NCBI RefSeq assembly: GCF_009914755.1
Contig: NC_060934.1
Length of the DNA stretch: 64,000 bases
Reading direction: 5' to 3' (one strand)
Origin: the human T2T-CHM13v2.0 reference genome, Homo sapiens
The notes under the pieces are model-generated. The model was not told the origin of the DNA. It did not search any database and saw only the letters and a program-made list of their open reading frames with translations. The translations under genes and the position numbers were made by a program. Positions 28,426 to 28,770 of this stretch are shown piece after piece. Position 1 is the stretch's first letter. Each line of letters begins with the position of its first letter.

Positions 28426-28770
28426 TTTTTTTGAGACAGGGTCTCGCTCTGTTGACTAGGCTGGAATGCAGTGGTGTGGAAGGCAGCTATGCTAACCACT
28501 ATACCACCAACGCCTCAGCAAGTGGTGTGATCTCTGCTCACTGCAGCCTCTGCCTCCTGGATTCAAGTGATTCGATTCTCGTGCCTCAGACTCCCAAGTT
28601 TCTGGGACCACAGACTTGCACCACCATGCCGGGATAAGTTTTGTATTTTTAGTAGAGATGGGGTTTTGCCATGTTGCCCAGGCTGGTCTTGAACTCTCAA
28701 CTTCAAGTGATCTGCCCGCCTCTACCTCCCAAAGTGCTGGGATTACAAGCAGGAGCCACTGCACCCGGCC
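28426..28770 (-). mobile_element. Alu (J/S-type) hosting the tRNA fragment
   Basis: Antisense Alu whose right arm is interrupted at 28479-28520 and resumes at the duplicated site. Confidence 0.93.
28477..28513 (-). pseudogene. tRNA-Gly(TCC) 5'-half retropseudogene inside an Alu
   Basis: Minus strand GCGTTGGTGGTATAGTGGTTAGCATAGCTGCCTTCCA matches nt 1-37 of tRNA-Gly-TCC as recalled. Flanked by direct repeat agtggtgtg (28470-28478, 28521-28529). Confidence 0.93.

What the first reader, a model, noticed from the sequence alone, without database searches (positions are those of the whole stretch)
28470..28529. Tailless tRNA-Gly(TCC) 5' half, ending in the anticodon loop, retroposed into an Alu
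Seen: the Alu right arm is interrupted by 42 nt between two copies of agtggtgtg. On the minus strand the insert reads TGCTGAG + GCGTTGGTGGTATAGTGGTTAGCATAGCTGCCTTCCA, which is tRNA-Gly nt 1-37 and stops one base after the TCC anticodon. There is no polyA, and the last 2 nt (CA) are shared with the TSD. Known: 5' tRNA halves arise by anticodon-loop cleavage (e.g. angiogenin), and tailless retropseudogenes primed by 3'-end/target microhomology are a described class. Inference: this is a genomic fossil of a tRNA half, or of internal priming in the loop. The target is not the T-rich L1 endonuclease consensus, which hints at capture at a staggered break.
Basis: partly seen in the sequence, partly recalled or inferred. 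Interest (0 to 1): 0.8.

Follow-up and report, generated by a model that had tools for sequence, protein, structure and literature searches.

The report
Catalogued tailless tRNA-Gly retropseudogene in Alu
A 44-base copy of the front half of a glycine tRNA precursor was pasted into an old Alu repeat without a poly-A tail; this kind of element has been known since 2004 and this very copy is in a published 2015 list, so it is ordinary.

Summary
On the + strand two exact copies of agtggtgtg (28470-28478, 28521-28529) bracket 42 nt inside a minus-strand Alu. On the minus strand the insert reads 7 nt (TGCTGAG) followed by tRNA-Gly-TCC nt 1-35, or nt 1-37 counting the CA shared with the repeat. The 37-mer is identical to the live chr19 tRNA-Gly-TCC gene.

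It is not new. It belongs to the "tailless retropseudogenes" (Schmitz 2004; Noll 2015). Table S2 of Noll 2015 lists hg19 chr10:17350048-17350084, 37 nt, source chr19.trna2-GlyTCC, which matches this locus.

In the window's own genome, 40 of 42 dispersed Gly-TCC copies are tailless 5' halves ending at nt 34-39. This copy's 9-bp duplication, 2-nt microhomology, 7 extra 5' bases and A-poor target all fall within that class.

One thing is added here: the 7 extra bases are a pre-tRNA 5' leader. Of the 8 copies of the same gene variant, 4 carry it, against 0 of 32 others.

The template was therefore an unprocessed nuclear precursor. That favours internal priming in the anticodon loop by LINE-1 over an angiogenin-type half of mature tRNA. 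Primate empty sites could not be checked.

The parts
28470..28478 (-). Target-site duplication, copy at the 3' end of the insert (minus strand CACACCACT). Its first two bases, CA (28477-28478), are also tRNA nt 36-37, which is the microhomology.
28477..28513 (-). tRNA-Gly-TCC nt 1-37, identical 37 of 37 to the live chr19 gene. It holds the acceptor 5' strand, the D arm, the 5' anticodon stem, and the loop through the anticodon TCC plus A37.
28514..28520 (-). 7-nt 5' extension TGCTGAG, read as the 5' leader of an unprocessed pre-tRNA. It differs by one mismatch, C>T at a CpG, from TGCCGAG, the leader kept in the truncated chr19 paralogue.
28521..28529 (-). Target-site duplication, copy at the 5' end of the insert (minus strand CACACCACT).
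28426..28770 (-). Host Alu (T-run 28426-28432 on the + strand is its A-tail; its 5' end is at 28770). It is about 294 nt without the 51 added bases. Subfamily not determined here.
   Evidence: (SRP/Alu-type Rfam hits below threshold)

Best explanation
The element is a tailless retropseudogene of tRNA-Gly-TCC. A Pol III precursor transcript that still carried its roughly 7-nt 5' leader was reverse-transcribed at a nicked site in an Alu right arm, most likely by the LINE-1 ORF2 protein through target-primed reverse transcription.

The 3' end of the nicked strand (...GGTGTG-3' on the + strand) paired with C36-A37 in the exposed anticodon loop, not with a poly-A tail. cDNA synthesis then ran to the 5' end of the precursor. 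A second nick 9 bp away produced the CACACCACT duplication.

The copy has no B box and no 3' half, so it is inert.

Shown here:
- the anatomy of the insert;
- identity to the tRNA;
- the duplication came with the insert;
- the leader is shared with sister copies;
- the copy fits the class and is listed in the published table.

Inferred, not shown:
- LINE-1 as the enzyme;
- internal priming rather than a pre-cut RNA;
- the identity of the source gene.
For: Anatomy and identity are shown.

The class is in print. Passages of Noll et al. 2015 (PMC5322556) read cite Schmitz et al. [quoted passage not shown] The truncation falls in loops, and the target is complementary to the terminal 2-18 nt of the annealed RNA. 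They argue for internal priming.

[quoted passage not shown] The reasons to equate that entry with this locus are:
- 7 of the 9 partial 5' hits have a Table S2 entry of identical length on the same chromosome.
- The four chr10 elements keep their order and roughly their spacing.
- This is the only Gly-TCC fragment found (at up to 3 mismatches) on chr10 between 17 and 22 Mb.

Survey of the window's own genome:
- 70 matches to tRNA nt 1-30 at up to 3 mismatches, 0 in the reversed control.
- 42 dispersed ones were fetched. 40 are retro-like 5' halves, 1 is a truncated paralogue and 1 is full length.
- Ends fall at nt 34 (1), 35 (6), 36 (2), 37 (8), 38 (22) and 39 (1).
- 32 of 40 have a clear duplication of 8-24 nt.
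- Microhomology of at least 1 nt is seen in 29 of 32 (exactly 2 nt in 6).
- Extra 5' bases number 0-13 (exactly 7 in 3 of 32).

Leader:
- The 7 nt before G1 lie within 1 mismatch of TGCCGAG in 4 of 8 copies that share T at tRNA position 20. These are this copy, L038, L047 and L071. L056 has 2 mismatches.
- None of the 32 other copies does (0 of 32). Fisher p = 7.7e-4; the chance of a random 7-mer doing so is 0.0013.
- In the control, 4 of 5200 upstream 7-mers match.
- Copies with G at position 20 likewise echo the leader of the chr1:145.15 Mb gene: 4 of 32 within 1 mismatch.
Against: The nick site (minus strand AT/CACACC) does not fit the LINE-1 consensus TT/AAAA, nor the TT/WAAAAWW that Noll et al. 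derive for tailless elements. The microhomology is only 2 nt, the lower bound of their 2-18.

The leader of the only live gene with T at position 20 is TATCAGG, 5 mismatches from this copy's 7 nt. The TGCCGAG form survives only in a truncated neighbour that has no 3' half. The source must therefore be an earlier state of the live gene or a lost gene, which is an assumption.

3 of the 8 sister copies (L034, L069, L070) do not carry the leader.

No enzyme can be shown from sequence. No primate empty site was seen.
Confidence: 0.8

Rival explanations
1. Fossil of a true 5' tRNA half. A mature tRNA-Gly-TCC was cut in the anticodon loop (angiogenin-type), and the free 5' half was reverse-transcribed from its 3' end.
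For: The end point, one base after the anticodon, lies where such halves end. 40 of 40 retro-like copies end at nt 34-39, and none ends in the variable loop or T loop. A fixed RNA end could explain that as well.
Against: Mature tRNA has no 5' leader, yet this copy and 3 of its 7 sister copies carry the same leader-like 7 nt. Noll et al. looked for truncated RNAs matching the breakpoints of 5S and U2 elements and found none. They concluded in favour of internal priming (passage read). That test was not done on tRNA.
Confidence: 0.05
2. A leader-bearing precursor fragment, already cut in the anticodon loop inside the nucleus, served as template. That is a truncated RNA rather than internal priming on a full-length precursor.
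For: It is compatible with both the leader and the narrow range of end points.
Against: Nothing in these calls supports such an RNA species. End points spread over six positions and track the first bases of the target (overlap of at least 1 nt in 29 of 32). Annealing-guided internal priming predicts exactly that.
Confidence: 0.08
3. Endonuclease-independent capture. The cDNA or RNA fragment was patched into a pre-existing staggered break in the Alu during repair, without LINE-1 endonuclease cleavage.
For: The target AT/CACACC is unlike TT/AAAA. Noll et al. note that the LINE-1 machinery can use existing nicks (Introduction passage).
Against: A clean 9-bp duplication with no loss of target bases is the normal outcome of two staggered nicks. 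14 of 32 class members are equally A-poor beyond the microhomology, so this target is not exceptional within the class.
Confidence: 0.06
4. DNA-templated patch. A short stretch of the chr19 tRNA locus (flank plus gene) was copied as DNA into a break by template switching.
For: A genomic template would also supply the 7 nt upstream of the gene.
Against: 40 independent copies share RNA-like limits. They start at or a few bases before G1 and end in the anticodon loop. Copying of DNA would not respect these limits.
Confidence: 0.01

Closest known systems
Tailless retropseudogenes of tRNAs (Schmitz, Churakov, Zischler, Brosius 2004, Genome Res 14:1911; Noll et al. 2015, Genome Biol Evol 7:889, PMC5322556)
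   Same: It is 5'-complete and 3'-truncated in a loop, has no oligo(A), and is flanked by a duplication. The target is complementary to the last bases of the copy, and the source can be an unprocessed tRNA. This locus appears in Table S2 of the 2015 paper. That table holds 666 tRNA-derived entries, 647 without genomic duplicates. The word 'gly' occurs 96 times in the file, and the Gly entries are mostly 30-47 nt long.
   Different: Nothing differs in kind. Within the class this copy is at the short end for its duplication (9 bp; range 8-24) and for its microhomology (2 nt). Its target lacks the A-run of the class consensus. The 2004 paper was not held; its content is known here only through passages in PMC5322556, PMC3747384 and PMC5135761.
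5' tRNA halves (stress-induced, angiogenin-type cleavage products of mature tRNA)
   Same: Same span of the tRNA, from nt 1 to the anticodon loop.
   Different: Halves come from mature, 5'-processed tRNA; that point is recalled knowledge, not taken from a call. This copy carries a 7-nt leader shared with sister copies, so membership is not supported.
Canonical LINE-1-mobilised copies (Alu, processed pseudogenes)
   Same: Short target-site duplication and a 5' junction with a few extra bases.
   Different: No A-tail. Priming is by microhomology inside the RNA. The target is not TT/AAAA.

Membership tests
Tailless retropseudogene (criteria in Noll 2015 Methods) | 5' end of the source RNA present (almost complete) | tested here: met
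   The copy starts at G1 of the tRNA and has 7 further nt in front.
Tailless retropseudogene (criteria in Noll 2015 Methods) | 3' truncated by at least 10 nt, at least 30 nt long, and more than 69% identical to the source | tested here: met
   37 of 72 nt are present and 35 are missing. Identity is 37 of 37.
Tailless retropseudogene (criteria in Noll 2015 Methods) | No oligo(A) tail at the 3' end | tested here: met
   CCTTCCA is followed directly by CACCACTGCATTCC.
Tailless retropseudogene (criteria in Noll 2015 Methods) | Flanking target-site duplication of 8-35 nt, at least 70% identical | tested here: met
   The duplication is 9 of 9 identical. The 9-mer is single-copy in other Alus.
Tailless retropseudogene (criteria in Noll 2015 Methods) | Truncation in a loop or other single-stranded region | tested here: met
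   The end is at nt 37. ARAGORN places the anticodon at 34-36 in the live gene.
Tailless retropseudogene (criteria in Noll 2015 Methods) | Target complementary to the terminal 2-18 nt of the copy | tested here: met
   2 nt (CA) are shared, which is the lower bound.
Tailless retropseudogene (criteria in Noll 2015 Methods) | Consensus target TT/WAAAAWW (a tendency, not a criterion) | tested here: not met
   The site is AT/CACACC. 14 of 32 class members are similarly A-poor beyond the microhomology.
Tailless retropseudogene (criteria in Noll 2015 Methods) | Made by LINE-1 target-primed reverse transcription | not testable with these tools
   Sequence alone cannot name the enzyme.
Tailless retropseudogene (criteria in Noll 2015 Methods) | Listed in the published catalogue | tested here: met
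   Table S2 lists hg19 chr10:17350048-17350084, chr19.trna2-GlyTCC, 37 nt. The mapping to this window rests on length, source gene, order and spacing, not on a coordinate lift-over.
Genomic fossil of a mature 5' tRNA half | Template is a processed tRNA, so nothing precedes G1 except target or random bases | tested here: not met
   The 7 nt before G1 match a gene leader in 4 of 8 sister copies against 0 of 32 others.
Functional tRNA gene | Complete cloverleaf with the internal B box (T arm) | tested here: not met
   ARAGORN finds 0 genes in the window. The copy ends at nt 37.

The most novel reading that the evidence does not exclude
The leader-bearing 5' halves may be dated snapshots of the tRNA gene's transcribed flank. 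Sister copies carry TGCCGAG-like or TGCCAGG leaders, while the live chr19 gene now reads TATCAGG. Either the leader of an active tRNA gene turned over at 4-5 of 7 positions while its retrocopies stayed nearly unchanged, or the true source was a T20-type gene that humans have since lost. If so, tailless copies could be used genome-wide to measure transcription-linked mutation and gene turnover at tRNA loci. A bolder variant is that the templates were real nuclear precursor fragments cut in the anticodon loop.
Probability: 0.3. Interest if true: 0.35.

Novelty: already known. Interest (0 to 1): 0.12.

Why it matters
As a single locus it matters little. It is an inert 44-nt insert in an intergenic Alu, 7.3 kb beyond the 3' end of ST8SIA6, and both the class and this locus are in print.

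The useful results of this check are two. Second, the extra bases in front of such copies are pre-tRNA leaders that can be matched to gene variants. That ties the class to unprocessed nuclear precursors and argues against a link to stress-induced tRNA halves.

Tried and rejected
1. The 7 nt as the leader of the live chr19 gene: rejected. That leader is TATCAGG, 5 mismatches from this copy.

2. The 7 nt as untemplated filler, or as a switch onto Alu RNA (GCTGAGGC-like words occur in Alus): dropped once the same 7-mer family was found in sister copies.

3. A profile of the 41 halves (A1, R1) to find more diverged copies in the genome: the tool does not take a model for this genome, and no other route was tried. 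As a result, three entries that Table S2 assigns to chr19.trna2 (hg19 chr2:40742213, chr7:68601780, chr12:58889118) were not examined for the leader.

4. Reading Schmitz et al. 2004 itself: not held.

6. Rfam: only sub-threshold Alu-type hits (mir-3135 31.8 bits against a gathering score of 80, SRP 23.8 against 70, and others) and no tRNA hit. These are of no weight.

7. Primate orthologues and pangenome presence or absence: no tool here holds primate genomes, so this was not done. The 2015 paper gives only summary counts of presence/absence patterns (Table S4), not a per-locus age.

Full report
**What is there.** On the + strand the window reads agtggtgtg (28470-28478), then 42 nt (28479-28520), then agtggtgtg again (28521-28529). 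On the minus strand the 42 nt are TGCTGAG followed by GCGTTGGTGGTATAGTGGTTAGCATAGCTGCCTTC. The next two bases, CA, are at once the first bases of the repeat and the next bases of the tRNA. No A-run follows.

The surrounding sequence is a minus-strand Alu (about 28426-28770). 31 other Alu matches in the window align to it, and many of those alignments begin exactly at the second 9-mer copy. Where both flanks could be placed on another Alu close to the junction, they overlapped by exactly 9 nt in 3 of 3 cases. The 9-mer is therefore single-copy in ordinary Alus. Two further pairs gave -13, from hits lying far from the junction. The duplication is tied to the insert.

**Identity.** The 37-mer occurs exactly three times in the 3.1-Gb genome that holds the window, and the reversed control gives none. 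One place is chr19:4708387, which ARAGORN calls a 72-nt tRNA-Gly with anticodon tcc at position 34. The second is this locus. The third is another tailless 5' half on chr2.

Among the full-length Gly-TCC genes found, only the chr19 gene has T at position 20.

**It is a known kind and a listed locus.** Noll et al. 2015 (PMC5322556; abstract, Methods passages, the Results section and supplements read) describe "tailless retropseudogenes". They cite Schmitz et al. [quoted passage not shown] In those elements the truncation falls in loops and the target is complementary to the terminal 2-18 nt.

Their Table S2 covers perfect elements (5' full-length, flanked by duplications; hg19). It holds 666 tRNA entries, 647 without genomic duplicates. 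One of them is chr10 17350048-17350084, chr19.trna2-GlyTCC, 37 nt.

I could not lift coordinates over, so the match to this window rests on other evidence:
- The entry has the same chromosome, the same length and the same assigned source gene.
- 7 of the 9 partial 5' hits have a Table S2 entry of identical length on the same chromosome. The two without one are the chr19 paralogue and a copy with a poor duplication.
- The four chr10 elements keep their order and roughly their spacing in both assemblies.

The 2004 paper itself was not held.

**The class in this genome.** A search with tRNA nt 1-30 at up to 3 mismatches gave 70 matches and 0 for the reversed control. I fetched the 42 dispersed ones and left out the 28 that one search shows as full-length genes on chr1, chr17 and chr19.

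Of the 42, one is a full-length pseudogene, one is a truncated paralogue beside the live gene, and 40 are retro-like 5' halves. The features of the 40 are as follows:

| Feature | Class | This copy |
|---|---|---|
| End point | nt 34 (1), 35 (6), 36 (2), 37 (8), 38 (22), 39 (1) | nt 37 |
| Clear duplication | 32 of 40, 8-24 nt | 9 bp |
| Start of duplication overlaps last tRNA bases | at least 1 nt in 29 of 32; exactly 2 nt in 6 | 2 nt |
| Extra bases between duplication and G1 | 0-13 nt; exactly 7 in 3 of 32 | 7 nt |
| At most one A in first four target bases beyond the microhomology | 14 of 32 | yes |
| Mismatches to a live gene variant | 0 in 6 of 40 | 0 |

This copy lies inside every one of these ranges. 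Its target (AT/CACACC) does not fit TT/AAAA, nor the TT/WAAAAWW consensus of Noll et al.. That is common in the class and does not single this copy out.

**The seven extra bases are a precursor leader.** The live chr19 gene is preceded by TATCAGG, which does not match TGCTGAG. About 1 kb away on the other strand lies a fragment (chr19:4707379). It is homologous to the live gene from roughly -60 to tRNA nt 39, and not beyond. Its seven bases before G1 are TGCCGAG. This copy differs from that by one C>T at a CpG.

Of the 8 retro-like copies with T at position 20, 4 have a 7-mer within one mismatch of TGCCGAG directly before G1:
- this copy;
- L038 (agccgag);
- L047 (tgcagag);
- L071 (tgccaag).

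L056 (tgccagg) has two mismatches. L034, L069 and L070 do not match. None of the 32 copies with another base at position 20 matches within one mismatch (Fisher p = 7.7e-4). A random 7-mer does so with probability 0.0013, and 4 of 5200 control 7-mers further upstream did.

Copies with G at position 20 likewise echo the leader of the chr1:145.15 Mb gene, 4 of 32 within one mismatch. The extra bases are therefore templated and follow the gene variant. The template was a 5'-unprocessed precursor.

**Mechanism.** The best reading, at about 0.8, is the published one: target-primed reverse transcription, probably by LINE-1. The nicked Alu strand paired with C36-A37 of the exposed anticodon loop of a pre-tRNA. 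cDNA synthesis ran to the 5' end of the precursor, and a second nick 9 bp away gave the duplication.

The anatomy, the leader and the fit to the class are shown. The enzyme, and the choice between internal priming and a pre-cut RNA, are inferred.

The leader speaks against a half of a mature, processed tRNA. That mature tRNA lacks a leader is recalled knowledge. A precursor already cut in the loop, capture at an existing break, and a DNA-templated patch remain as minor rivals. The shared RNA-like limits of 40 independent copies speak against the patch.

**What stays open.**
- The source gene. The live gene's present leader differs at 5 of 7 positions from this copy. The neighbour that keeps TGCCGAG has no 3' half and cannot be a Pol III gene now. 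The source was therefore either an earlier state of the live gene or a lost gene.
- The order of the leader states TGCCGAG, TGCCAGG (L056) and TATCAGG does not fit the apparent ages of the copies in any simple way. I leave that unexplained.
- The age of the insertion. No primate or pangenome data could be reached, and the 2015 paper gives only summary presence/absence counts.
- Three further Table S2 entries assigned to the chr19 gene were not examined, because the profile search was not accepted for this genome.

**Verdict.** Interest is low.

Noticed in passing
L004:362-682 (minus strand), equal to G000 chr19:4707379-4707408 and flanks; also L040: A fragment lies about 1 kb from the live tRNA-Gly-TCC gene, on the opposite strand. 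It is homologous to the gene from about -60 to tRNA nt 39 and not beyond. It keeps a different 7-nt leader (TGCCGAG) and ends in the anticodon loop like the retrocopies. Whether it is a DNA duplicate or a copy of an upstream-started transcript is open.
   Followed up: partly
L068 (G000 chr10:22508306-22508735): This 5' half is followed, after its 24-nt 'duplication', by the start of a second copy of the same tRNA fragment. The element plus its flank has been tandemly duplicated, and the long repeat is not a plain target-site duplication.
   Followed up: no
L041, L047, L064 (chr19:61057942, chr7:29725147, chr6:42390127): Three more of the 40 Gly-TCC 5' halves also sit inside sequence that looks like Alu. 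Lying in an Alu is therefore not special to this copy.
   Followed up: no
L056 (G000 chr1:229801333-229801762): Its 7-nt leader tgccagg is half like the paralogue's TGCCGAG and half like the live gene's TATCAGG. It may be an intermediate state of the gene flank.
   Followed up: no
window 28453-28563 and 28585-28636: There are sub-threshold Rfam hits to the Alu-derived microRNA families mir-3135, mir-1908 and mir-1268. The mir-3135 alignment simply skips the tRNA insert. None reaches its gathering score.
   Followed up: no
L003:2072-2144 (minus strand): A tRNA-Val (cac) gene lies about 500 bp downstream of the live chr19 tRNA-Gly-TCC gene.
   Followed up: no
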